From Catajapyx aquilonaris (Eukaryota), in NCBI GenBank assembly GCA_000934665.2, contig KZ538493.1:46558-66557 (forward strand): 20,000 nt of DNA, given 5' to 3'. This document shows, piece after piece, positions 68 through 18,124 of this stretch. A program made the translations under genes and the position numbers. How positions within the stretch are numbered: the stretch's first letter is position 1; each line of letters begins with the position of its first letter. The notes beneath the pieces are model-generated. The model searched no databases. It was not told the DNA's origin and was given only the letters and a program-made list of their open reading frames with translations.

Positions 68-1509
68 TCAGCCAGACAAAGCTGTGCCAGTAGCTTTGGT
101 CACAGGTTTCTGAAAATGCCTAATTACATTGTAGGCCTCAGAAGATAGCTGCTTGGTCAGGAGCGAGTTCCGCACAACCTTCAGCTTCCTCTTTAAATTT
201 CTGCTTGACTGGTCAATGGCAACCACACACTTTCGCCACAACATGACGTCATTCAGTGCATTGAACTCCGAATATATAATTTCTCCAATCTTGTTCATAC
301 CTAAATCGGGAAACCGTCCTTTTCCGCATATTCCAGAGCAATTGCAGTGGTATCGAACACTGTCCTTGTACATCACTAGAGTCAGGAGAACTGCCGTTCT
401 CACAGGATTGTTGGAGGCTTCCTCCATAAGTCGCTTGATGATCGATTGAGGGTCTGATTTCATTTGGATGAACAGTCCATGAAGAGAAAATGTGTGATGG
501 AAAAAGTGGGTAAGTGGCACTTGCTGTACAATAATGGAACATTGGGACGAGCGTTTGGGGGAAGGTGAAGTCAAAAGATATGCTTCATCTGTTCCTGTCC
601 AATGTCTCTCTTCGGCTACAATCCCACACTGATCCTACGGCTCCTCCTCCTCCTGCTTCACTACATCTAATGCGACTCCATTGGATTGACTTGCATCGAT
701 TAATTCACGTGTGCAGCCAGCTCTTTCCAATCCCTTGTCCTCGGATGATGAAAGCAAAGTAGAAATTAATTTGTGCTGCGAAAAAAAGGAACATTAAATA
801 TACAGTGGCTGAATCTCAAACGGTTGAAAATTTTAATTCTATCAATGTCTCAGCTGAAGGTGCTCAAAATGATCATGCTACAGAAGGAGTGTATTGTAGT
901 AAAATAAGGATCAGTTGAAATGCTACCAAGTACCTCTCGCTCTTGAACTGTCTTCCTCTTTTTCTTCCGTGACATATGCACCTGAGATGTTGATGATCCT
1001 TGAGGTGCATGAGCCTCTTCAATGATCTTCGTTTGAAGATGGCTGGAATTCTCAGGGCCACCATTTTCATCTGATGATCCCTGGGTTGCGTGCACCTCTT
1101 CTGTGATGGACTCTGTCTTAAGTGGGTTGGCATTATTTTTAGCTTCACTTCGATCCGAGTCTTCTGCTGAACGAGCCAAGTCGAACAACACCAATCTTAA
1201 GAGTGTGGAAATGATCTGTCCAAAAAATTGAAGTTAGGCTACGTAACTCTAAAACATTTCAACACCCTGAGAATCCTGTCATTAGACTGCGCCCGTCAAG
1301 TACGATACTTACCAACCCTCTATAATTGATGAGGGGCATCCATCTCACCACCTTCACTTCTCCGCACCGTTTCTTTCCCTCCAGCTGGAGATATAATCCT
1401 CAATTCTTCCAACTCTCCTCTCGATGCCATCCACCTTCCTCTCTATTCTGGCCGACTGTTCCAGGCTCATTTCCAGAAAAGAAAGCATCCTATCCCACTG
1501 TACTTTCAT
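68..1509 (-). pseudogene. Disrupted coiled-coil + BEN-like domain gene (gene E)
   Basis: First exon from ATG 1509 (or 1488) reads MKVQWDRMLSFLEMSLEQSARIERKVDGIERRVGRIEDYI and aligns with the first exon of the ZF paralogs, but it meets TGA at 1354-1356 before the GTAAGT donor at 1312. A middle exon (~1215-933) is a low-complexity linker. The last exon (~740-68) has an in-frame TAG at 635-637, then RTAVLLTLVMY..RYHCNCSGICGKGRFPD..KIGEII..F..WRKCVVAIDQSSRNLKRK (~185-406), which matches the BEN pattern (G..GK..LD/ I..I..F / W..C..AID..R). Confidence 0.62.
991..1125. repeat. 81-bp-period internal duplication in gene E linker exon
   Basis: TGATGATCC at 991 and 1072; encoded peptides LKTESITEEVHATQGSS and LQTKIIEEAHAPQGSS lie 27 aa apart. 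Confidence 0.75.
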
Positions 1510-4861: not shown

Positions 4862-5721
4862 CCAGCTAGTTGACAGCCAGTACGATCAATTGCAATTGCA
4901 TATTTAACATTACAAGTAAGCGATACAGTTTACTCCCAACTGTTTTACTGTTTACTGTTTAACACCCAATGTGCGTTACATGCTGCCCCTTCTAATTCCC
5001 ATCTCTTATTGTCATCTCTTTCCAACCTTACATTGCCCAGATATTATCATGCCAGCTGGACATACCCATTCCGATTAGTGCACTTGGCACGATACATGCT
5101 AGAAAGCTACAAATTTTCAAAACCAGTTTGATATGGTGCAAAGGGAAAGTGATAATTTATGGATTACACGGAAAAGTTTCAATCCAGGTCTAGTATTAAA
5201 AGCAACAGTGAATATTCAGCATGCAGTTCTGAATGGAATATCCCTTTTCGCACTTGCTCCTAAATATCGTGGAGTTAAATCGAGGCTAAACTCTAAACAC
5301 GAGGGTTCCATCTTACCCCACATTTTCATGTCTGGCAGTAAAATGACTTTGTACAATATCATACACTATACTAGAGTAAAAACCAGAATAAGTAAAATCA
5401 ATTAATAGCTCTAAAAAGAGGCTGAAAGGGCTCATAAAATCTGCTGATTAGGATCTTTTTCCAACCCAAAATGTCTGTGATAAAAAATTTTGAGGTTAAA
5501 ATTTATTTATTTATTTTTGTTACTGTGTTGGGCTGTATGCCATTGTGGTTAATAACGAGACCTAATATGGCATAAAATTTCACAATGTTACATTTGCCAC
5601 TCATTCTAAGGTTAAAAAGCATCATCCCGTACTTAGCAAAAAAAACCAGCTAGTTTGACGCCCAGTACGATCAATGCCAATTACATATATTTAACATTAC
5701 AAGTAAGCGACAGAGTTTACT
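4862..5721. repeat. ~75-bp direct repeat pair (4862-4934 and 5646-5721)
   Basis: CCAGCTAGTT..CCAGTACGATCAAT..CAATT..ATATTTAACATTACAAGTAAGCGA..AGTTTACT occurs twice, 784 bp apart, downstream of the gene D stop codon. Confidence 0.85.
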
Positions 5722-5755
5722 TTTCTGATGTGCACATGCGCATCCATGTGATATT

Positions 5756-8700
5756 TTATGTACAACCTGTTTGTGAATCCTTCCTCACACTTTGCACACG
5801 AGTATGGCTTCGTGCATGAATTATCAGAGCCCTTTCACGACTAAATCCCTTTCTGCACACATTGCAAGTGTAAGGCCGTATGCCATAATGCACAGCTCGA
5901 GTGTGCGCAGTGAGAGTACTTTTTTGCGTGAATCTCTTCCTGCAGCGTTCACAAGCAAATGGCTTTTCTGCATTGTGTTTTAACTGGCATGCCTTGTGGC
6001 TTCGCATGTGATATTTAAGAGCCCTTCCATGAGGGAATGCACCACCACACACATCGCAATGCTGTATTCCACTATGAAGGCTTTTCAAATGTGCTGTGAG
6101 AGTACTCTTTTGGGTGAAACTTCTTGGACACAAGACGCATCTAAACGGCTTCTCCCCTGTGTGAATTAACTTATGATCCCTTAAATGCCCCTTGTTCTTG
6201 GTGCTGTATGAACACATATCACAGTAGTGCAGCTTTCTGGTACCTGGTTCTGTCTTTGGAATAAGCAGTGCGGACACACCAGCATTGTCTTCCTCACTTC
6301 CTCTTTCCTCACCTGGTTGGATCACATCTGGTGTAAGAATACCAGCTGGTTCCTTTGAACTTCCAGGTTTAGACAAAGCATATCCATGTTCCTCATTGAC
6401 CTCAGCTACAGTGACATGTGACTTAACACATGCTGTAAGTTCAGCTGCTTTAGCAAAAGTCTTCTTACACACTCCGCATTGATAAGTCATCCACGATGAA
6501 CTAGGGTCATTCTGAAATTTAAAAAATATATATTAGCCATCCAATTTTTCCAGAATTTCTCAAAGTACTACTTCAGTTACAGATGTACAAGGAAAGCGTA
6601 ACTAACTTCTTCAACTGCAATTGGGTCAGTTGCTACCGAACTGTTAAAGGAAACGCTGCCAAAGGGATCATCTGGCTCTGATTTGACAGTTCTTCTGGCA
6701 TTCCTCACATGGTCTTGTGATGTTTCAATAGTTCCATCCTCGCAGTCATCCTGCAAGATAATAATTTTTTAAATTTTTTGCATCAAAAAAGCCTGGCTTA
6801 TACCATCCGTCTAAACCGTAAGAGAGAATGACAAATGTTTTTCGGATTCGGATTCAGCGGACCTTAAGTAGGTGTCATGGTCATCTTCCAGTCTGGTTTT
6901 CCGGGTTCACTCCATAGGCCAAGGTCAAGTCTAGCTTTCAATGGGAATGGGCTTGGCAATGGGAAATGAGACTGACATAATTCTATGTCATTACTGTCCA
7001 ATTAGAATCGCATCACATCGTCAGTGTCATTTCCAGTTGCCCAATGAAAAATAAAGCTACCGGTACGTTTACATGCAAGAGATTTCATCAGCGACTGAAC
7101 GAAAGTAACAATCCTGTGGTATCATTTTATTTTCGCCCCCCAAATAATTGGTCTCATCGCTCAGCAATGTACCGTACATCACTGCAACATAGCTGATCAA
7201 ATCGCTCACATGTAAACGTGCCATAAGCTGCGTTTACATATGAGCGATTTGATGAGCTAAGTCTTTGCCGAGGCTGAGTAACCCAAGTAACCAATATTGT
7301 TTGAGGCAAAAATCGATTGTTAATTTCGGCCTCGGTGAAGATTTCGCTCACATGTAAACGAAGCTTTAAGGTGGAAATGAAGCTAGAGTCACTTAATGAG
7401 AATTTTATGAAAAAAACATAATTATGTTACGCAGTTTTACTGTTACGCAGTTAAAACTCCCCACCCCCGTGGGTGCCCCAGTGGTTATTACGTTGCATAG
7501 TCTATGGATAAACATAAAATGCAATTATGTTGCTGCAGAACCATCAAGGATGGAATTTTAATCCCACTGCTATAGTTACTGCTAACTTAGCTATTCCAGT
7601 ACCAACACTGGTACTGCTAAGTTAGAAGTAACTATAGCAGTGGGACGAAATCGACCGTAAATCGTTACCAAGCGCGCGAGAGTCGAGATGGGACCTATGG
7701 CTAGGCACTATGCAAATGGTCCGCAAGAGTGCTGCAAGAGTTTGAACTTTTGGACGGTCACAAAAATACCACGAAACATCACCAACACATATACGTCTCT
7801 CACTTACACATTTTATGTGTTAGTGAGAAGTGAGCAGCGCCAGTAGCACCTTGCGACCGGAACGCCCACTTTTGCTAGGACGCTGAAAATACGGCCCATA
7901 ATACAGGGTGATGTCACGAAATTCGCACATAATCGCCAGGTAGAGTGCCAGAGCGCCAGCCACAAATTATAATCTATCATGACCCTCATCTTCCTCACCT
8001 ACACATTTCCTTACCATTGTCACTTTTTGGTTATATACAGGGTGTATCTGAACTCAGTGCCCCGACGTATATGACTGCCTTCCTAGCCACCAGAGGATCG
8101 ATTGAAGTATAGGAGTCATTATGTCTGGCAGCCGCATTACTGAGATAATTGGCCGCAAACATGTAGTACAAAATATCCTGTCGGTTAGGCCACCCATCGA
8201 ACCCTCCCCCAGTCAGAAGGCTCTGGAAGGTCTGGGGGCGGGACTTTGTTGGTTTGTTGCCCACAGGATGGTGGTAAGGCCTCTTTGGCTATAGTTACAC
8301 CAGAAAATTTTATTTAAAGGTCAGGAGCGATTAGGCAAAAATCGTTAAAGAATGTATCTCAGTAATGAGGCTGCCCAGACATAATGACTCCTCTACATAA
8401 GTTGATCCTCTCGTGGCTAGGAAGGCAGTCATATACGTCGGGGCACTGAGTTCAGATACACCCTGTATACTGGCAGTGTGGAAGATGACTTACTGAAAGG
8501 TAAGGAAAAGAAAAATGAGGGAAAACAAAAAACAAACACGTCAGTTATGTTTCACCCCATTAGGGGGAACTGTGCCATTTTGGGAGGCCGGGGACTACAT
8601 GTAAGATTGTCATTCTTCTCAACAGTGGCACAGTTAGTTCATTTATTGAAGAATCCAACAACTGACTTAATAACTCTCGCTGAATTTGTAACACGTGGTT

Positions 8701-11150
8701 TCCCACTTCCAATATTTTCACTAAGAAAGGCCCAAATGCCTTCCTGCCCCCCATGAGCGAATACGTCTCTGAGCTTGTCTATTGTCACACCTGCTGCAGC
8801 CATCTTGGCTATAATACCCTTAGAAATGGAACCAGCAAGTGGTGCAAGACCCAGTGCAATTTGGGCATTCTTGGCCTTGTCCTGTTGACTGCGCACAAAC
8901 ACTGATAATGGCACACTATGGCTGAGCAATGCACTACCAATGTCCAATGTCTTGCAGACACCTTCTAGTGCTAGCACATCGGAAGTAGCTTCGTGGGCTC
9001 CACTCGCATCATATCCGGCAACATATTTTTCTGCCAGAGCTGACAGCTTGTAGGTGGGCTCCTTCTTCCACTTCTCCTTGTCTTCTTTGTGGAGAGACCT
9101 CATCAGTGGAAGCGTATCAGCCACACCCCATACGACACCTTCAAAACTACTGCCAAGTCCATTGCGCTTCATTGCATCCAAAAGTCTAGGTACATCAAAG
9201 GCAAAAGCATTGTGCCCCGCCAACACAACATTTTCCCCAACACTGCGCAAGAAATCAAGGAACTTCTGCAAAGCATCTTCCACAGGTAATGCCGCCACTC
9301 CTTGACCACGGTGGAAAAGTTCTCCATCCACTACTGAGAGTCCTGTGATGGCACTTGCTGTAGCTGAGATGCTATGGGATGGTTTGGCATATACACTAAA
9401 GGGTGGGGTTCCAGAACCAGCGCATTTACCTGCGACCTGAATAATTTCACAATTCCTGTGAAGCCCAGTAGTCTCGATGTCGAAATACACCAGCACTCTA
9501 TTATCAAGCTCTGGACATGCAGATCCTGAGGGCAAGGTGGAGGCATCAGGGGCCTGAAGAAAGCCAACATCTGCCAGATATGAGACTCCTTCCCTCTGCT
9601 CCATACCTCGCCGTTGTTGGCTTCGTTGCTTCTTCACGAAGAGCCGCCTTGACTTGTATCTTTCTGAATTCTTCAGAATTCTGATCCGGTACCGTAGAGC
9701 ATCTTTTCTTTTCCTAGCTTTCTCTGTCAAGATACCTGGCGACATGGACAGCTTCTTGAAAGTTTGGCTGGAATACGCAGTCTCCAAATTTTTCTGACTG
9801 ACAGCAGCTGCCACACGGCTGTTGAGGCTGGCACTGCCTCCGTAAAACTTTGCCTTGGGAGTCTTGCTGATGACGATGCTATTGAAGCTCTCATTTGCTT
9901 GGCTTGATCCCCCCGGGGCAAGTTTTGCCATCGGCACCTAAGGCGTGAATGAGCTAGTTACGAACTATTCATACTGAATTACGGAAAGTGGACACAGTCT
10001 CTCACCTGCTTCAGCTCCCGTATCACAGCACACAAGCTTCAGAGGCAAGTACGGCACACCAACGCCCCAATTTTCGTGCACACCGGCAGCGGAACCAAGC
10101 AAAATCAGTCGAGAAATACTGCTAGAAAAATCCACCGACTAGCACTAGTTTTTTTCTTCGTCAAACTCCCCCACCCTTGTGGGTACCAGTTCACGAATCG
10201 AATTATTCGAATCCACCGGGCAAAGACGTCACATACTGCTACGCGATAATTGGCCCGGACCTTTGCTGCGTTGCCACTTCTATCTGTCACACGCGTACAT
10301 ACCAACTGAACGTGTTCCAAATCCGACACAAATGAAGAGCTACAAGCACCCCTTTCGGAACTAAACTTTTTAAAATGCCATGACAAATTGGGACCTCGTA
10401 ATTATGACCGAATAAAATCGATTTCCATCCAAAAAAAATAATATTAACCATACCTCTAAATTCCATGAAAATGGCGCCTGCGCACAAAAACTTCCAGCCG
10501 GTAATAGGCCCATATTAAATTGAGTTTAAAACACAGATTAGAATGGAATGCATAGGATTGAACAGCATTTACTGCTGCATCGGTTGCGTATGTTTCCCTG
10601 ATTTTAGCCCTTCTTATTAACATTCCAATTCTAGACTCTCATTTGATTAGCAAGTCGCTTCATTTCCACCTTAAGTAATGCAGAGGAAGCAGGTCATACC
10701 AGGCACACAAATAAGCCTGCAATATTTAAATGCGAGATACGCTAACACAGTCACCTCGGTATATACACTATGCGATGATTGTGTTATGATTCCGTCGGAG
10801 CTTCCTGCTGGAACTGGCCCACTCCGCATGTACTCTTCCGGTAAGAACTCTTGAAGAAATTCTTCACCTCCAGCGCCTTTATGGAGATAATACGAGATCA
10901 GTAAGACATACTGCGACACAGTGACTAATACCCAACCTGCTGCAGGTCGTGTCCTCCTTTCCGTCAGGATGAACCCTTCTATCCTGGCCATCCTTTGGTC
11001 CATCTGAGTCATCCTTTCGTCCATTTCTACCATCCTTTGGTCCATTTCAGACATGGTCCTTTCCATCCGGTCAGTCTGGGCAAGGCTGCGCTCCAGGAGG
11101 GTCACAACGTATGCCAGGCTTGTGTTGGGGAGTGATGATAAGGCGGCCAT
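5756..11150 (-). CDS. Coiled-coil + C2H2 zinc-finger protein, gene D (exons 11150-10937, 10876-10755, 6750-6607, 6511-5756; ~411 aa)
   Basis: The ZF exon has 5 canonical C2H2 fingers with TGEKPF-like linkers plus one C2CH finger. Exon 6750-6607 (..VKSEPDD..) has a clean AG/GT. The exon number and phases (1,0,0) are the same as in genes A and B. The join across the 4-kb transposon-filled intron is inferred from phase and paralog architecture. Confidence 0.75.
7062..7364. mobile_element. Two adjacent small related MITEs (7062-7222 and 7227-7364), possibly PIF/Harbinger-type
   Basis: Ends GGTACGTTTACATG..CATGTAAACGTGCC and GCTGCGTTTACATATG..CATGTAAACGAAGC. The facing ends form a 29-bp inverted repeat with 2 mismatches (7190-7218 vs 7231-7259). 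TSDs are unclear, so the superfamily is tentative. Confidence 0.6.
7562..7645. repeat. Near-perfect 84-bp hairpin
   Basis: 30-bp arms TCCCACTGCTATAGTTACTGCTAACTTAGC / GCTAAGTTAGAAGTAACTATAGCAGTGGGA (1 mismatch), with an inner stem CAGTACCA-acac-TGGTACTG. Confidence 0.85.
8038..8465. mobile_element. Tc1/mariner-type MITE (428 bp) nested in the TTAA element
   Basis: TA|CAGGGTGTATCTGAACTCAGTGCCCCGACGTATATGACTGCCTTCCTAGCCAC ... exact reverse complement ..CACCCTG|TA. TIRs are ~110 bp and the TSD is TA. Confidence 0.92.
8639..9937 (-). CDS. DEDDh (DnaQ-like/TREX-like) 3'-5' exonuclease with PML/Plex9-like C-terminus, preceded by a transposase C-terminal remnant (terminal exon, 432 aa)
   Basis: ExoI LVYFDIETTGL, ExoII LAGHNAFAFDV and ExoIII AHEATSDV are all intact. 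The tail ISKGIIAKMAAAGV..L..GGQEGI..L..GKPRVT resembles the region following the exonuclease fold in PML-like proteins. The N-part KLAPGGSSQANESFNSIVISKTPK..RVAAAV is typical of metazoan 'Mutator-like' transposase C-termini. Acceptor CCTTAG at 9938; a 68-nt intron lies upstream (10005-9938). Confidence 0.88.
   Translation of the reverse strand: MPMAKLAPGGSSQANESFNSIVISKTPKAKFYGGSASLNSRVAAAVSQKNLETAYSSQTFKKLSMSPGILTEKARKRKDALRYRIRILKNSERYKSRRLFVKKQRSQQRRGMEQREGVSYLADVGFLQAPDASTLPSGSACPELDNRVLVYFDIETTGLHRNCEIIQVAGKCAGSGTPPFSVYAKPSHSISATASAITGLSVVDGELFHRGQGVAALPVEDALQKFLDFLRSVGENVVLAGHNAFAFDVPRLLDAMKRNGLGSSFEGVVWGVADTLPLMRSLHKEDKEKWKKEPTYKLSALAEKYVAGYDASGAHEATSDVLALEGVCKTLDIGSALLSHSVPLSVFVRSQQDKAKNAQIALGLAPLAGSISKGIIAKMAAAGVTIDKLRDVFAHGGQEGIWAFLSENIGSGKPRVTNSARVIKSVVGFFNK
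10989..11051. repeat. 3 x 21-bp tandem repeat encoding coiled-coil heptads
   Basis: CATCCTTTGGTCCATCTGAGT / CATCCTTTCGTCCATTTCTAC / CATCCTTTGGTCCATTTCAGA, encoding SEMDQRM VEMDERM TQMDQRM. Confidence 0.9.
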
Positions 11151-11247
11151 GGGTTCGACAAGCACAGGGGCGGCCACGGGGCAGTAAAAGTAGGCGAACG
11201 AGGCTCGAAATAGTCGGAAATGGAAAAACGTTCTATTTCCAAGAAAC

Positions 11248-12602: not shown

Positions 12603-14971
12603 TCAAGATCGAGTGTGGCTTGCACTTGCTGTATGAAGGCGTCGCACATGCACATTCATGTTATGCTTCAAGGTGAAAGTACGATTGCAAAATTGACAAG
12701 AATATGGCCTTTCTCCAGTATGTTTGCGCAAATGCTTAATCATGTCAGATTTTGCAGCAAAACGTTTATGGCAGACATGGCAAGTGAATGGTTTCACACC
12801 TCCGTGAACCATTCCGTGATACTCCAGCTGCTGATAGTAGCTGAAAGCCATCCCACACACCTCACACTTGTAAGGTTTTAAACCAAGGTGAACAGCTTTC
12901 ATATGAACAGATTGATAATATTTTGTGGTGAAGCTGGCACCACATAATTTGCAATAAAATTTTGTTTGACTCTCTCCTGGATGGAAATCATCACGTGCTG
13001 AATGGGCCAACTGATGAGAAGCAAATTCTCCCTTGCCATTGGTAGCATATGAACAGACTTTGCAACAGAATAAAGCAGGTTTTGCAGCCCCTTTCTCTAC
13101 CTTTCCTTTCCTCTTGCATCTTTCTTGGGTACACTCAGTCTCAATTGCCTGGAGATGATCTGGAGATGCACTTCCTCCAGAGTATTCACCCTGTACCACA
13201 AAGATGTTTTGTTGTCCTGACTGAGACATGTCCATAACCTCCTCTTCTTGTTTAACTATCACTTCATGAGACTTGATGCATTCTTCTAGAGCAGATGGAT
13301 TGTGGAAAGTTTTGTTGCAGATGCCACATTGAAAAGGGTCCCTGGATGGCAGCTGGCTCTTTGGAAAGAAATGGATAAATATTAGTGTCAATCAGTCATG
13401 AAAATCCTGAGATGCTGTAATTAACTTGAAAACTTTATAATAAGCAAGGCCATGCCCCCCAATTCTTCTGATTTCTGCCAGCTTAATTATTGTGTCGTGG
13501 TCCTATAATAACACTTTGCGCAACCCACCAATCTCCTCCTGTCCGCACTATTTTTATTACAAGCATCATCCCAGGAATAATGTAGTTGCTCCAAGGCAGT
13601 ACACTCACATCCTGATGCCCAGGCGGATGCAATTCCACTTGTCCATTGAAGGAATCATTCACATCATTACTCCGGTAGAGGGATGGGTTTTCAGCCACGC
13701 AGCAATCAATATCGGACCTGCTTCCTTCAGTTTGTCGCGTCAGTAATTCAGTCATCTCTTGCTTCCAGTTTTCCTAAAGGAAAATAACATCATTAATTTC
13801 AATGTGAAGCAGCAAAATGCCTCTCCATTGCAACATGTACAAGTGCTTCAATCAAATGATTTAATTCAGCAATACTTCTGTAGGCTTATGGTTCACTCTC
13901 AAATACTCTTCTTTTCACTAAACAAGTTTGAACAAGTTATTTATAAATCTTGGGAAACAGATGGCTGTGTCATACCTTAACCATGGAACCGGGACGTAGG
14001 GTATTTAGGACCCCAAAGGAAGTAAAAATGCAAAATGCATCGCAATGAGTGACCTTGAAACGATAATGACCTAAAACTCCGTGTATTCCTTAAAAAAACT
14101 TAATTTCATGGATCAAATCTGGTTTCATAATTTTCACACCTACCAAAATGTACATAAGTCGTTGTTTTTGGACCCATGCTCTCGTGGGGTCCAAAAGGAG
14201 ACCCACGTCACGGTTCGGGGCATACACGAAAGAAAACTCTCCACTAGAAAATTAAACTGTTGCCATTTTCAAAAACAGTATATAACAGAAAGTGCATGTT
14301 TATTTTGAATTAGCGATCATTTTATACATTGTTCAAAGAATGATTGCATGTAGCCAACACATTGAAAAGTATTATCAAAAAATTAATAAAAATAAAAATA
14401 TGGCATGTCACGGTTAATGTCACTTTCAGGCATTTCACGATTCCAGGGTTAACACCACAAAGGCCAAACCCATGATCTGAAATGCAGCATCATACGACAC
14501 CGACATTTGCTTAATCTACCATAATAATCCTCAGAAGAATTACAGATGAAGCTTACCTCCACCTCTAAAGTGTGGTTCACTAATTCAGGCTGTCCAAAAA
14601 GTGCCCCATGCATGTCAAAAGTAGCAGAAGTTCCTTGATGAACTGGTAGATGCTGCTCTGACAGACCTTCTTCAATAGTCGTATCAGAGCTTCTTTCATG
14701 ATGCACTTCTGTAGGGGGTAAAGAGTAAACGGTATTGTATACTTTACAACAAAGACAATAGGGCTTGAATTCCCAACTCAGAGCTACACCTAACCTTCAT
14801 CATGAGTTGTCTTCCTCTTCCCTTCCTCTTCCCTCAGGATGAACCCTTCTATCCTGGCCATTCTCCTGTCCATATCCGCAATGGTCCTCTCAATCCTGCC
14901 AGTCTGGGTCAGGCTTCGTTCCAGGAGGGACACAACGTGGGGCACAACAAGGTTGGTTGTTGGGTGGCCAT
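12603..14971 (-). pseudogene. Coiled-coil + C2H2 zinc-finger gene B with 5' frameshift (exons 14971-14795, 14708-14557, 13773-13609, 13358-12603)
   Basis: Exon-for-exon paralog of gene A. Exon 1 is 177 nt vs 175 nt: an extra TG near 14944 gives TGA at 14909-14911 after 20 codons. The other exons and splice sites are intact, with one C2CH and five C2H2 fingers. An in-frame ATG at 14873 could rescue a shorter protein. Confidence 0.75.
13981..14448. mobile_element. piggyBac-like MITE in intron 2 of gene B
   Basis: TTAA|CCATGGAACCGGGA ... TCACGATTCCAGGG|TTAA (11/14 TIR match), with internal GGACCC/GGGTCC motifs. Confidence 0.68.
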
Positions 14972-15298: not shown

Positions 15299-18124
15299 TC
15301 ACGTTGTCGTATGAATACGTTGCACATGCAGAGTCATGGCATGATTCCAGGTGGATTTATGATTACAAAATGGGCAAGAACATGGCTTCTCTCCTGTATG
15401 TTTACGCAAATGCTTCTTCAAATCAGATTTTGTAGCAAGACATTTAAGGCACACGTGACAACTGAATGGTTTCTCACCCGTGTGGACCATTCTGTGACGC
15501 TTCAGATCATGAGATTTGCTGAAAGCCTTCTCACATACCTCACATTGGTAAGGTTTTAATCCAAGGTGAACAGATTTCCAATGATCTGATAAAGAGTATG
15601 TAGTGGTGAAGCTGGTACTGCACAATTTGCAGTAATATTTTGATTCACTCCCTTCTGGACGGACCTTACCATGCGCTGAATGGGTCAGCTGATGAGAAAC
15701 AAATTCTACCTTTTCATTGGTAGCATATGAACACACTTTGCAACAGAATGAAGCAGGTTTTTTGGCCCCTTTCCCTCCATTTTCTTTCCTTCTGCATCTT
15801 AATAGGGTCCTCACAGTCTCATTTGCCTGGAGACGCTTTGGAGATGCACTTCCTCCAGATGTTTCTCCTTGTACCACAAAGCTGTTTTGCTGTCCTGAGT
15901 GAGCCTGCATAACCTCCTCTTCCTGTTCAACTTTCACTTCATGGGACTTGATGCATTCTTCCAGAGCAGATGGAATGTTGAAAGTCTTGTTGCAGATTCC
16001 ACATTGAAAAGGGTCCCTGGATGGCAGCTGGCTCTTTGGATAAGAATGGATAAAAATTACTATCAACCAGTCATGATAATAATCCTAAGATGCTTCTGTA
16101 AATAACTTGCACACTTTATAATAAGGGATAAAGATTATCCATCCCTTCCAATTCTCCACGTTGGAAGAAATCCACATGATCGCTTATGTTTGAAATACAG
16201 ATTTCACCCCTTCTGATCCGTCTTTCCTGCAATTCATTAAGCTAATTATGCCATGTACATCCTTACAAACTTTTGCTTCCTTCCCTAAACCAGCAGGCAG
16301 GCAGAATAAATTGAAGCAAGCTGCACAAAATTTCCGCTGCCATTATGACACTTTTGGCAGCATGATGTGTCATAGTCCTACTGCAACAGTCTTCCCAGCC
16401 CACTAATCCCCTCCTGTCCACATTATTTCTCTTCCAAGCAGCATCCCCATAATCATGCATAATGTAGTTGTCCCGAGCCAATACACTCACATTCTCATGT
16501 CGAGATGCATGCAATTCCACTTGTCCACTGAAGGAATCACTGGCTTCATGACTCTGGTGTAGGGATGGGTTTTCAGTTACACAGTCAACAGTCACATCAA
16601 CGCTTCCGTCATATTCTCGTGTAGGTAATTCTGGCATATCCTGCTTCCAGTTTTCCTGCAAGAAAATAACTCCTTTAGTTTTAATGTAAAGCAGAAAGAT
16701 GTCCTTGCATTGTAATATGCACATATCATCCAACAGGAACACACAACAATTTTTTGTGACTATGAAACACTTTGGTACAATCAAATGTCAGCCATAAGGC
16801 ACATTCATAAAACCACTTCTTTTTTTAAAAACTTTAACTGTATAATTTTTTTAACAATGTTGCAGGAAACTGAAATGGATTTGTGAATGGACCTTGAGCC
16901 AGTCAACATCCCAAAGGCCTAACCCATGCACAGTGTGTCCAAATGCGGGATTGCTTGCACAACAATGGAAAAAGCAAATTGGCCGAGTCCTGTCAAATCT
17001 GCCCTAACGTAAGAAATTAATGTCCGAACAATAATAAGAATTTCTTTGGTAGGTTCCATTGATAAGGGTTTTATACCAGGCAGGTATACTCATGTCGAGT
17101 GTTTGCCTGCCACCGTTTTGTGCATATTCAGTCAACTTCTAATGGTCACGGAAGAAAGGTCACCGCATTTCCACATTCAGGCTCATCAGGATTTTGAGCT
17201 GCGCATAAAATACCTCTGGCTAAGTAATACTAACTCTCTTGCAGCAATTTGAATGTGACCTTGAAATGTTGGCAGCAGTGGTTCTTTTGTTGAGGATTGC
17301 ATTATGCGCATATCATAACATTCCTCTCATTTTAAAGACGAAAAAGTGGATTTCACAAAATTTCACTTCAAATCACACATTAAAAGAAAGACTAGACTCC
17401 CCAGGTATAGATTAATTCGTTTCAATGTGGTCACATTTTTCTAAAAGGAGGTCAGATTTGTCAAGGGAGCAGTTTGCTACCCTGACGAAATAGGTGCATG
17501 AATCTATCATCACAAGGTCGAATGTAATCGTTCCTTCTGTGCGTCAATGTGAAATGCGCTACTTTTGTCTTAAAAATCAGAGGAAAGTCGTGACAAATAC
17601 GCTTGGAAGTGGGAGCCATTGTCCAAGCATTCACGCATTTGGGCCACACTGTGCCATGGCCTGAAATGCATCGGCATGCCACCCTGACACTCGCCGGATA
17701 ATTATGACATCTGGAGCAGAATGCTTACCTCAACCTCTAGAGGGTCGTTCACCGCTTCCGCTTGCCCCAAGTTCCCTCCGAGATTATCCAAACCTGGGCA
17801 GGTCCCTCGATGTAGAAGCTGCTCCGATTTGCAATCTTCAACCGTAATATCATAGCCTCTCTCATGATGTAGTTCTGTAGGGAATAGACGGTATTGCATA
17901 TGTTCCCACAAACGCAATGGGCATAAATAGGGCTTGAATTCCACCCAACCTGCATCATCAGGTGTCCTCTTCCCTCCCTCCTGTTCCTTCAGGATGAACC
18001 CTTCTATCCTGGCCATCCTCCTGTCCGTCTCTGCAATGGTCCTCTCAATCCTGTCATTCTGCGCCAGGCTTCGTTCCAGGAGGGACACAATGTGGGGCAA
18101 CCAGGTTGGTTGTTGGGTGGCCAT
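15299..18124 (-). CDS. Coiled-coil + C2H2 zinc-finger protein, gene A (exons 18124-17950, 17874-17729, 16655-16491, 16033-15299; 406 aa)
   Basis: Canonical GT-AG sites, phases 1/0/0, open throughout: MATQQPTWLPHIVSLLERSLAQNDRIER.. / ELHHERG.. / ENWKQDMP.. / SQLPSRDPFQC.. with one C2CH and five C2H2 fingers and TGEKP linkers. Confidence 0.87.

What the first reader, a model, noticed from the sequence alone, without database searches (positions are those of the whole stretch)
8639..11150. In-phase splice route to a coiled-coil-exonuclease fusion (PML-like exon capture)
Seen: the element lies in the same orientation as host gene D, with its end 84 bp into intron 2. Host exon 2 ends in phase 0 (GAG|GTGACT, 10755) and the nuclease exon begins in phase 0 (CCTTAG|GTGCCG, 9937). 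Joining them gives an open 112+432 = 544-aa protein, as an alternative to the ZF isoform. Known: vertebrate PML-I couples a coiled-coil (RBCC) N-terminus to a captured exonuclease-fold exon. Inference: possible convergent domestication in progress, which could recruit a nuclease to ZF/BEN partners through the shared coil. Phase match has a 1-in-3 chance probability, so this is a hypothesis.
Basis: inference. Interest (0 to 1): 0.82.

Follow-up and report, generated by a model that had tools for sequence, protein, structure and literature searches.

The report
Truncated KolobokD transposon in a zinc-finger intron
A cut-down DNA transposon that still encodes an intact PML/Plex9-type exonuclease sits inside an intron of a zinc-finger gene, where it could on paper be spliced onto the host protein, but no RNA evidence shows that this happens.

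Summary
The sequence facts are correct. Host exons 1 and 2 give 112 codons ending in phase 0 at 10755. The 432-codon frame 9937-8639 follows CCTTAG, and the join is open for 544 aa.

The "nuclease exon" is the 3' part of a KolobokD-type transposon gene. Its relatives carry a Mutator-like/Kolobok transposase, then a DEDDh exonuclease, then a PML_C domain. It lies in a 3.3-kb element with perfect 18-nt inverted ends, TTAA on both sides and GG..CC termini. The transposase core is missing.

The phase-0 AG is the frame's own upstream TAG stop. It also looks like the element's own acceptor. An ATG-free 226-nt leader, a near-consensus donor (CAG|GTGAGA) and a 68-nt mini-intron precede it, the first ATG follows at 9931, and AATAAA sits at the stop.

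This layout matches the known first step of "transposase capture". No junction-spanning RNA was seen, and the element's own donor competes for the acceptor. The exonuclease is a true homologue of fish Plex9 and of the PML C-terminal domain, so a fusion would be parallel capture, not convergence.

Verdict: a real, ordinary transposon relic, with the fusion still an untested hypothesis.

The parts
7366..10674 (-). Whole transposon copy including both TTAA duplications (3309 nt). A non-autonomous, internally deleted KolobokD-type element.
   Evidence: Perfect 18-nt inverted ends, the only two matches in the window with up to 3 mismatches (0 of 200 shuffles give 2). TTAA on both sides and GG..CC termini.
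10657..10674 (-). Left (5') end: TTAA (10671-10674) plus the 14-nt terminal inverted repeat GGTGGAAATGAAGC.
7366..7383 (+). Right (3') end: TTAA (7366-7369) plus the terminal inverted repeat.
10006..10231 (-). ATG-free leader, the putative 5'UTR exon of the element's own transcript. It ends at the donor CAG|GTGAGA (last exon base 10006).
   Evidence: 226 nt without ATG; only 0.56% of 5000 shuffles are ATG-free. The donor matches the consensus at 8/9, the best in the locus. Its role is inferred, not shown by RNA.
9938..10005 (-). Putative 68-nt mini-intron of the element. It ends in the acceptor CCTTAG, whose TAG is also the in-frame stop bounding the frame.
   Evidence: The size is like host introns 1 and 3 (60 and 95 nt).
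8639..9937 (-). 432-codon frame. First ATG at 9931-9929 (residue 3), stop at 8641-8639. It encodes a conserved NESFN block, a basic linker, a DEDDh exonuclease and a PML_C/SAM-like domain.
8969..9490 (-). DEDDh 3'-5' exonuclease domain (residues 150-323). D153, E155, D248, H315 and D320 are present.
   Evidence: Pfam RNase_T E 5e-10. The window sequence keeps all 19 nearly invariant family columns. Fold closest to Plex9.1, TM 0.85-0.89 normalised to the target.
8645..8830 (-). PML_C (SAM-like) C-terminal domain, residues 370-431.
   Evidence: Pfam PF25244 E 7.8e-10, 39.3 bits against a cutoff of 27.1. Helical at pLDDT >95.
8642..8647 (-). AATAAA polyadenylation signal directly before the stop codon.
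8034..8469 (.). Nested high-copy MITE with 95-nt inverted ends (94% complementary), in the element's 3' non-coding part.
   Evidence: Word depth is in the tens of thousands in the DNA runs.
10937..11150 (-). Host gene D exon 1 (ATG at 11150). It encodes a Met/Arg-rich helical-looking repeat shared with three paralogues in the window.
10755..10876 (-). Host exon 2. Ends in phase 0 at the donor GAG|GTGACT (7/9 consensus).
6607..6750 (-). Host exon 3, the normal partner of exon 2.
   Evidence: Run X5 record 27 lies exactly on 6607-6749 with flanks that leave the genome.
5756..6511 (-). Host exon 4 coding part (C2H2 zinc fingers).

Best explanation
Positions 7366-10674 are one non-autonomous copy of a KolobokD-type cut-and-paste transposon. 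It inserted at a TTAA in intron 2 of a C2H2 zinc-finger gene, in the sense orientation. An internal deletion or equivalent rearrangement removed the transposase core. What remains is the element's leader, a 68-nt leader intron with its acceptor, an ATG (9931), and the in-frame 3' part of the gene: the last conserved transposase block (NESFN), a basic linker, an apparently active DEDDh exonuclease and a PML_C/SAM-like domain, followed by AATAAA.

If the frame is expressed, the default route is the element's own transcript (leader ...10006|9937, translation from M3, about 430 aa).

Splicing of host exon 2 (10755) to 9937 is possible and in frame. It is the textbook first step of host-transposase fusion. 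Here it remains unshown and is probably minor, because a stronger donor lies only 68 nt upstream of the acceptor.

Shown: the anatomy, the homology, the intact catalytic residues and the open fusion frame. Inferred: the roles of the leader and mini-intron, the deletion history, and every statement about expression.
For: Element boundaries:
- Perfect 18-nt inverted ends, the only two matches in 20 kb.
- TTAA on both sides and GG..CC termini. This matches the Kolobok definition (TTAA duplication, 5'-RR..YY-3') in PMC9587614 (passages read).

Family:
- 2361 library proteins match the frame at E<=1e-3.
- 29 of the 31 relatives of 700 aa or more carry PF20700 (Mutator-like transposase) N-terminal of the exonuclease, and 18 of 31 also carry PML_C at E<=1e-5.
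- PMC9587614 describes KolobokD as the Kolobok lineage with a DEDDh exonuclease resembling Exuperantia and TREX, found in molluscs, arthropods and cnidarians. The nearest Atlas clusters are mostly molluscan.

Truncation:
- 108 of 154 relatives stop aligning at 9919-9937, and 86 of those have more than 100 residues left unaligned upstream.
- The family profile aligns positions 208-635 only.
- The in-frame upstream translation scores -5.1 bits, below shuffled controls.
- No transposase remnant was found anywhere in the window.

Intact module:
- D153, E155, D248, H315, D320 and all 19 nearly invariant family columns are kept.
- The model has mean pLDDT 91.
- Top fold matches are Plex9.1 (9mrd/9mrc), then Exuperantia EXO+SAM, then TREX1/2.

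The element's own expression signals:
- A 226-nt ATG-free leader (0.56% of shuffles), a donor at 8/9 consensus, a 68-nt intron sized like host introns (60 and 95 nt), an acceptor at 12/17 pyrimidines, the first ATG right after it, and AATAAA at the stop.

DNA and RNA records:
- In three DNA runs of one sample, one contig (8444-10254/6, 0 differences) covers the frame at word depth 29-33. That is similar to the contigs over host sequence (23-37), while the flanks collect thousands. A 344-nt contig bridges the left end (10650-10993).
- Run X5 holds a 324-nt contig over 8591-8914, the last 91 codons plus 48 nt.
Against: - No full-length copy of this family was available, because the window's genome is not held. 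The deletion and the ancestral status of the leader, mini-intron and ATG are therefore inferred.
- The transposase of the relatives is named 'Mutator-like' by Pfam. Its assignment to Kolobok rests on the TTAA/RR..YY ends of this copy and on the published description, not on a direct comparison with KolobokD reference sequences.
- The right flank (7055-7365) is itself a cluster of high-copy inverted repeats, and the paralogues share no intron sequence, so the empty site could not be reconstructed.
- The frame is intact, keeps every conserved residue and shows no second assembled copy in that sample. This fits a domesticated or fusion-recruited gene as well as it fits a young relic.
- The tool warns that word depth is not a copy number.
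- The X5 contig over the frame's 3' end shows it is present in a run that holds spliced host cDNA. That is compatible with the fusion as well as with a transcript of the element's own.
Confidence: 0.72

Rival explanations
1. Nascent host-transposon fusion. Host exon 2 is alternatively spliced to 9937 and the mRNA ends at the element's AATAAA. The product is a 544-aa protein carrying the family's shared N-terminal helical region in front of an active EXO-SAM module, as an alternative to the zinc-finger isoform.
For: - The frame is open across the join.
- The element is in the sense orientation in an intron, with a well-formed acceptor directly upstream of its frame and a poly(A) signal at the stop.
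- This is the layout reported for young host-transposase fusions. In 8 of 9 traced cases the site used was an acceptor immediately upstream of the transposase frame, supplied by the transposon (preprint 10.1101/2020.05.07.082677, passages read).
- The stop would lie in the last exon, so no nonsense-mediated decay is expected (inference).
- The first 145 residues of the frame form separate helices plus a low-confidence linker, so an N-terminal addition need not disturb the exonuclease fold.
- The library holds one predicted protein, P0141, that joins EXO + PML_C to BTB and C2H2 domains.
- Run X5 holds spliced host cDNA and also the 3' end of the frame.
Against: - No record spanning 10755|9937 was seen.
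- The host donor (7/9) must beat a better donor (8/9) that lies 68 nt from the acceptor. In a genome with 60-95-nt introns that pair is likely to be removed as a unit (inference).
- The phase match is a 1-in-3 coincidence and the AG phase is automatic.
- Searches for a protein carrying the host N-terminus found nothing at all, so no annotated isoform exists to consult.
- P0141 may be a gene-model chimera.
Confidence: 0.15
2. A stand-alone domesticated gene nested in the intron. The truncated EXO-SAM protein (M3-K432) is made from the element's own promoter and kept by selection for a host function such as nucleic-acid degradation or transposon control, as reported for fish Plex9.
For: - The 432-codon frame is intact and keeps all catalytic and nearly invariant residues.
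- The 5'UTR-like leader is ATG-free and the first ATG lies at the truncation point.
- No second assembled copy appears in the DNA runs of one sample.
- Several relatives also start just upstream of the same NESFN block (7 of the 77 in which the motif could be placed). The Atlas holds molluscan clusters of 253-336 aa with only the EXO and PML_C domains.
- Plex9 proteins are active exonucleases that restrict LINE-1 (PMC10123124, abstract and passages).
Against: - The perfect 18/18 inverted ends and intact TTAA duplications point to a recent and still mobilisable insertion.
- No orthologue or selection test was available.
- The closest library protein is only 41% identical.
- Short relatives may simply be fragments or truncated gene models.
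Confidence: 0.12
3. The two inverted ends belong to two separate MITE copies that happen to flank unrelated unique DNA, so the nuclease frame is not part of one mobile element.
For: The end segments (10256-10674 and 7356-7723) collect very high word depth, while 8444-10254 does not.
Against: - Only two copies of the terminal repeat exist in the window, in inverted orientation, and neither end segment has an inner partner.
- High-copy ends around a low-copy interior are what a family of deletion derivatives predicts.
- The coding content (a Kolobok-associated exonuclease) matches the Kolobok-type ends.
Confidence: 0.05

Closest known systems
KolobokD transposons (Kolobok superfamily lineage encoding a DEDDh/DnaQ exonuclease; Mob DNA 2022, PMC9587614, passages read)
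   Same: TTAA duplication and RR..YY termini. A DEDDh exonuclease resembling Exuperantia and TREX that, in relatives, follows a DDD/E transposase. Found in molluscs, arthropods and cnidarians.
   Different: This copy lacks the transposase core and cannot move by itself. The paper does not mention the PML_C/SAM-like tail or any relation to PML or Plex9 ('PML' and 'Plex9' each occur 0 times).
Host-transposase fusion genes born by alternative splicing (KRABINER, SETMAR, PGBD3-CSB; preprint 10.1101/2020.05.07.082677, abstract and passages read)
   Same: A DNA transposon in an intron of a zinc-finger gene, in sense orientation, with a transposon-supplied acceptor directly upstream of its frame, a poly(A) signal of its own and an in-frame join.
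   Different: Those cases have RNA support for the junction and evidence of selection; this one has neither. The part that would be captured here is an accessory exonuclease, not a transposase DNA-binding or catalytic domain.
PML-I exon 9 domain (CDE/PXL) and fish Plex9 exonucleases (PMC10123124; PMC13659232, passages read)
   Same: The same EXO plus SAM-like module. Pfam PML_C is passed, and Plex9.1 is the best solved match by sequence (E 1e-18 to 1e-26 for the frame, 1e-57 to 1e-73 for the family profile) and by fold. The DEDDh residues are intact, as reported for the Plex9 and gar PML enzymes.
   Different: There is no RING, B-box or TRIM-type coiled coil upstream. The module sits in a transposon, not at a PML locus. 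Human PML-I has lost the catalytic residues, whereas this frame keeps them.
Drosophila Exuperantia EXO-SAM (PDB 5L80)
   Same: The same two-domain arrangement. It is the third-best fold match, and its 319-column alignment is the longest among the matches listed.
   Different: Exuperantia is a pseudo-nuclease that binds RNA. This frame keeps the DEDDh residues.

Membership tests
Kolobok superfamily transposon | 4-bp TTAA target-site duplication | tested here: met
   TTAA at 10671-10674 and 7366-7369, directly outside the inverted ends. Because TTAA is a palindrome it also extends the inverted repeat, and the empty site could not be reconstructed.
Kolobok superfamily transposon | Termini 5'-RR ... 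YY-3' with terminal inverted repeats | tested here: met
   GGTGGAAATGAAGC ... GCTTCATTTCCACC, 14 nt plus TTAA, 18/18 complementary. The rule is taken from PMC9587614.
Kolobok superfamily transposon (autonomous) | Encodes a DDD/E transposase | tested here: not met
   No transposase core was found in the window by tblastn with 154 relatives, by family profile or in the in-frame upstream translation. Only the block downstream of Pfam's transposase domain remains. This copy is therefore a non-autonomous derivative.
KolobokD lineage | DEDDh (DnaQ) exonuclease encoded downstream of the transposase | tested here: met
   The exonuclease is present with D153, E155, D248, H315 and D320. 29 of the 31 relatives of 700 aa or more have transposase followed by exonuclease. 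No direct comparison with KolobokD reference sequences was made.
PML_C / Plex9 / Exuperantia EXO-SAM module | DEDDh-fold domain followed by a SAM-like C-terminal domain; passes Pfam PF25244 | tested here: met
   PML_C 39.3 bits against a cutoff of 27.1, RNase_T 40.6 against 24. Plex9.1 TM 0.85-0.89 and Exuperantia EXO+SAM aligned over 319 columns.
PML (TRIM19) orthologue | RING, B-box and coiled-coil (RBCC) N-terminus in the same gene | tested here: not met
   The host exon 1-2 frame and a paralogue's N-terminal frame have 0 Pfam families. The host C-terminus is C2H2 fingers.
Host-transposase fusion gene | Transposon in an intron, sense orientation, acceptor immediately upstream of its frame, in-frame join | tested here: met
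Host-transposase fusion gene | RNA evidence for the host-transposon exon junction | tested here: inconclusive
   One run of unrecorded kind (X5) holds spliced host cDNA and a contig over the frame's 3' end, but no listed record spans 10755|9937.
Host-transposase fusion gene | Purifying selection on the captured part across species | not testable with these tools
   No genome is held for this window, and the closest library protein is 41% identical.

The most novel reading that the evidence does not exclude
The locus may be a living snapshot of the route by which vertebrate PML-I acquired exon 9. A KolobokD EXO-SAM module, still catalytically intact and carrying the transposon's own acceptor and poly(A) signal, sits in phase behind the self-associating N-terminal exons of a multi-copy transcription-factor family. 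On this reading a low-level fusion mRNA (10755|9937) is made. Its corollary is that PML exon 9 and the fish Plex9 genes are themselves descendants of a KolobokD capture. That link was absent from the literature searched here ('Kolobok' with 'promyelocytic' gave 0 papers; 'KolobokD' gave 1 paper, which does not mention PML; the PML/Plex9 paper contains no 'Kolobok', 'transposase' or 'DNA transposon').
Probability: 0.15. Interest if true: 0.75.

Novelty: new member of a known kind. Interest (0 to 1): 0.42.

Why it matters
The locus itself is an ordinary event, a deletion derivative of a DNA transposon in an intron. Two things make it worth keeping.

First, it has every sequence prerequisite of the documented birth route of host-transposase fusion genes, and here the module on offer is an apparently active nuclease, not a DNA-binding domain. 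One RT-PCR would say whether the first step has been taken.

Second, the transposon's nuclease is a close relative of the PML C-terminal domain and of the Plex9 exonucleases. The family profile matches Plex9.1 structures at E 1e-57 to 1e-73, against 1e-21 for Exuperantia and 1e-12 to 1e-16 for TREX. This makes a testable proposal for where PML-I's unusual last exon came from: capture of a KolobokD accessory domain. None of the papers I could search makes that connection.

Tried and rejected
- **RNA runs.** No RNA holder was listed for window 5700-11200. In X5 no contig lies on 9012-10483, so no junction contig for 10755|9937 or 10006|9937 could be seen. This is a gap in cover, not evidence. 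The 61-nt upstream flank of X5 record 27 is compatible with exon 2 by depth arithmetic, but the piece was not listed.
- **Insertion polymorphism.** No listed contig joins 10675 to 7365. The listed joint 7215->10960 has only 20 letters on one side and lies in repeats, so I disregard it. Nine joints were not shown.
- **Self-association of the host N-terminal exon.** It counts neither for nor against binding.
- **Whole-genome search.** No genome is held for this window.
- **Proteins carrying the host N-terminus (longer forms).** 89 candidates, none significant, so no annotated isoforms could be consulted.
- **Earlier notes of this scan.** None by place or by sequence. A word look-up failed on a formatting rule and was not repeated.
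- **Empty-site reconstruction from paralogues.** Only exon 1 is alike at DNA level.
- **Decayed transposase coding upstream of 9937.** Three of 154 BLAST alignments run on through two stops, but the family profile gives -5.1 bits there, below shuffled controls. Rejected.
- **A nested MITE at 10196-10466**, suggested by loose ends. No inverted ends were found. Left open.
- **A conserved intron at the truncation point.** The short relatives start at differing residues. No support.
Full report
**Observation**

The region was read on the minus strand and the gene model was rebuilt from coordinates.
- Gene D has exon 1 at 11150-10937 (ATG at 11150), exon 2 at 10876-10755, exon 3 at 6750-6607 and exon 4 from 6511.
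- Exons 1 and 2 total 336 nt, so exon 2 ends in phase 0 at GAG|GTGACT.
- The join 10755->6750 continues into an open C2H2 zinc-finger protein.
- The frame 9937-8639 has 432 codons. Joined behind exon 2 it gives an open 544-aa product.
- The element's TTAA begins 80 nt into intron 2 and the element proper 84 nt in.

Every stated fact is therefore correct. One qualification applies. The 'acceptor in phase 0' is the in-frame stop TAG (9940-9938) that bounds the frame, so its phase is automatic. Only the host donor's phase is a 1-in-3 coincidence. In addition, 18 of the 48 AG| sites between 9937 and the exonuclease domain are in phase.

**What the frame is**

Pfam finds RNase_T (residues 150-323, E 5e-10) and PML_C (370-431, E 7.8e-10, 39.3 bits against a cutoff of 27.1), with a sub-threshold match to the Exuperantia RNase H-like domain.

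A search of 1.84 billion representatives gives 2361 relatives at E<=1e-3, the best 41% identical. Of the 31 listed relatives of 700 aa or more:
- 29 carry PF20700 (Mutator-like transposase) N-terminal of the exonuclease.
- 18 also carry PML_C at E<=1e-5.

In an alignment of 97 sequences, the window sequence keeps all 19 nearly invariant columns, including the DEDDh residues D153, E155, D248, H315 and D320. The AlphaFold model has mean pLDDT 91. Its best solved matches are zebrafish Plex9.1 (9mrd/9mrc, TM 0.85-0.89 normalised to the target, 29-30% identity), then Exuperantia EXO+SAM (5l80), then TREX1/2.

By sequence, the frame matches the Plex9-type entries at E 1.7e-26 to 7.6e-18. The family profile matches them at 9e-73 to 8e-57, against 1e-21 for Exuperantia and 1e-12 to 1e-16 for TREX. 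The identification of 9MRC as Plex9.1 comes from PMC13659232 and from the entry title.

**What the element is**

The frame lies between perfect 18-nt inverted ends, TTAAGGTGGAAATGAAGC at 7366-7383 and 10657-10674. These are the only two matches in the window with up to 3 mismatches, and 0 of 200 shuffles give two. That means TTAA on both sides and GG..CC termini.

Passages of PMC9587614 state that Kolobok elements make TTAA duplications and have 5'-RR..YY-3' termini. They also state that the KolobokD lineage encodes a DEDDh exonuclease similar to Exuperantia, TREX and ERI1, and occurs in molluscs, arthropods and cnidarians. The nearest Atlas clusters to the EXO-SAM part are mostly molluscan. 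I therefore file the element as a KolobokD-type copy.

The transposase-level assignment rests on the ends and on the published description. It was not checked against reference KolobokD sequences.

**The copy is truncated**

- Of 154 relatives, 108 stop aligning at 9919-9937, and 86 of those have more than 100 residues left over upstream.
- The family profile aligns positions 208-635 only.
- Three BLAST alignments run on upstream through two stops, but the profile scores that translation at -5.1 bits, below shuffled controls.
- No transposase remnant exists elsewhere in the window.

The frame keeps only the conserved NESFN block that lies downstream of Pfam's transposase domain. From recall, not tested here, this block holds the last catalytic E in this group of superfamilies. 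A basic linker follows (18 K/R in 42 residues), then the EXO and SAM-like domains.

**The element's own expression signals**

- Upstream of 9937 there is a 226-nt stretch without ATG. Only 0.56% of 5000 shuffles are ATG-free.
- That stretch ends in CAG|GTGAGA, which matches the donor consensus at 8/9, the best in the locus. Host donors score 6, 7 and 6 of 9.
- The 68 nt from that donor to the acceptor match the size of host introns 1 and 3 (60 and 95 nt).
- The acceptor has 12/17 pyrimidines, against 8-12/17 for the host acceptors.
- The first ATG after it is codon 3 of the frame (9931).
- AATAAA sits directly before the stop.

The simplest reading is that the acceptor is the transposon's own leader-intron acceptor and that an internal deletion fused the start region to the 3' part of the gene. 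This is inference, because no full-length family copy could be examined.

**Sequencing runs**

Five runs hold parts of 5700-11200, and none is on record as RNA.

In three DNA runs of one sample:
- One contig of 1811-1813 nt covers 8444-10254/6 with no differences, at word depth 29-33. This is like the contigs over host sequence (23-37).
- The end segments and the nested MITE collect depths of thousands to tens of thousands.
- A 344-nt contig bridges the left end (10650-10993).
- The tool warns that depth is not a copy number.

Run X5 (kind not recorded) holds a 243-nt contig that lies exactly on exon 3 (6607-6749), with 61 and 39 letters leaving the genome. The bin depths fit the 39 letters lying on the first 39 nt of exon 4 (52 nt x 3.6 / 184 = 1.02, as listed). 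X5 therefore contains spliced cDNA of gene D. X5 also holds a 324-nt contig on 8591-8914, the last 91 codons of the frame plus 48 nt, with no differences. So the 3' end of the frame is present in a run that carries host cDNA. Nothing shows what it is joined to.

**Assessment of the fusion**

The layout is the one described for the birth of host-transposase fusion genes: insertion into a host intron, then alternative splicing to an acceptor supplied by the transposon immediately upstream of its frame (8 of 9 traced cases; preprint 10.1101/2020.05.07.082677).

Against it:
- No junction evidence exists.
- The acceptor has a closer and stronger partner donor, 68 nt away.
- The in-phase match is a modest coincidence.

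I put the chance that a fusion transcript is made at detectable level at about 0.15, and the chance that it is functional lower still. A stand-alone domesticated gene (about 0.12) fits the intact frame and the absence of a second assembled copy. It is hard to square with perfect ends and intact duplications.

**Relation to PML**

A fusion here would be a parallel capture of the same module. The host N-terminus has no RING or B-box, so this is not a PML relative as a gene.

None of the texts I could search links Kolobok to PML:
- 'Kolobok' with 'promyelocytic': 0 papers.
- 'KolobokD': 1 paper, with no mention of PML or Plex9.
- PMC10123124 has no 'Kolobok', 'transposase' or 'DNA transposon'.
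- PMC13659232 has no word starting 'transpos'.

The supplements of these papers were not looked at. The direction of descent (transposon to host, or host to transposon) was not tested.

**Verdict**

The fusion remains an untested hypothesis of a known mechanistic kind. The most useful by-product is the close kinship of KolobokD exonucleases with Plex9 and PML exon 9.

Noticed in passing
window 8639-9937 and relatives P0001-P0154: The exonuclease plus PML_C module of transposase-linked (KolobokD-type) proteins is much closer to the fish Plex9.1 structures (family profile E 1e-57 to 1e-73) than to Exuperantia (1e-21) or TREX (1e-12 to 1e-16). 18 of 31 long relatives pass PML_C at E<=1e-5. This suggests PML exon 9 and Plex9 share a specific origin with this transposon domain. 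I found no paper making the link.
   Followed up: partly
protein P0141 (library representative, 627 aa): A predicted protein joining EXO + PML_C (residues 31-296) to a BTB domain (330-424) and C2H2 fingers (572-595). It is either a real exonuclease/zinc-finger fusion elsewhere or a gene model that merged a nested element with its host.
   Followed up: no
window 8034-8469: A MITE with 95-nt inverted ends (94% complementary), apparently flanked by TA, nested in the element's 3' non-coding part. It has the highest word depth in the region, in the tens of thousands.
   Followed up: no
window 7055-7366: A cluster of overlapping inverted repeats built on a CGTTTACATGTGAGCGA core (pairs I3-I6). It abuts the element's right TTAA and has high word depth. 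One arm ends exactly at 7366, so two TTAA-using elements may share this target site.
   Followed up: no
window 7557-7650: A near-perfect palindrome with 44-nt arms (86% complementary) and a 6-nt spacer, inside the element. High word depth.
   Followed up: no
window 7450-7477 and 10160-10187: A 28-nt direct repeat (75% identity) containing the small palindrome CCCAC..GTGGG, once near each end of the element. It could be a subterminal binding site or chance.
   Followed up: no
window 1375-1509, 10938-11150, 14793-14963, 17948-18124 (minus strand): Four paralogous N-terminal exons share an invariant L-E-x-S-L-x-Q..R-x-E-R...R..R-I-E..I pattern. Gene D carries a 14-residue insertion of MDxRM-type repeats. 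None has a Pfam family.
   Followed up: partly
window 5797-6134: The DNA runs hold a second contig with 9 differences over 173 nt across part of exon 4, at roughly equal depth to the matching contig. This is either an allele or a very recent duplicate of the zinc-finger exon.
   Followed up: no
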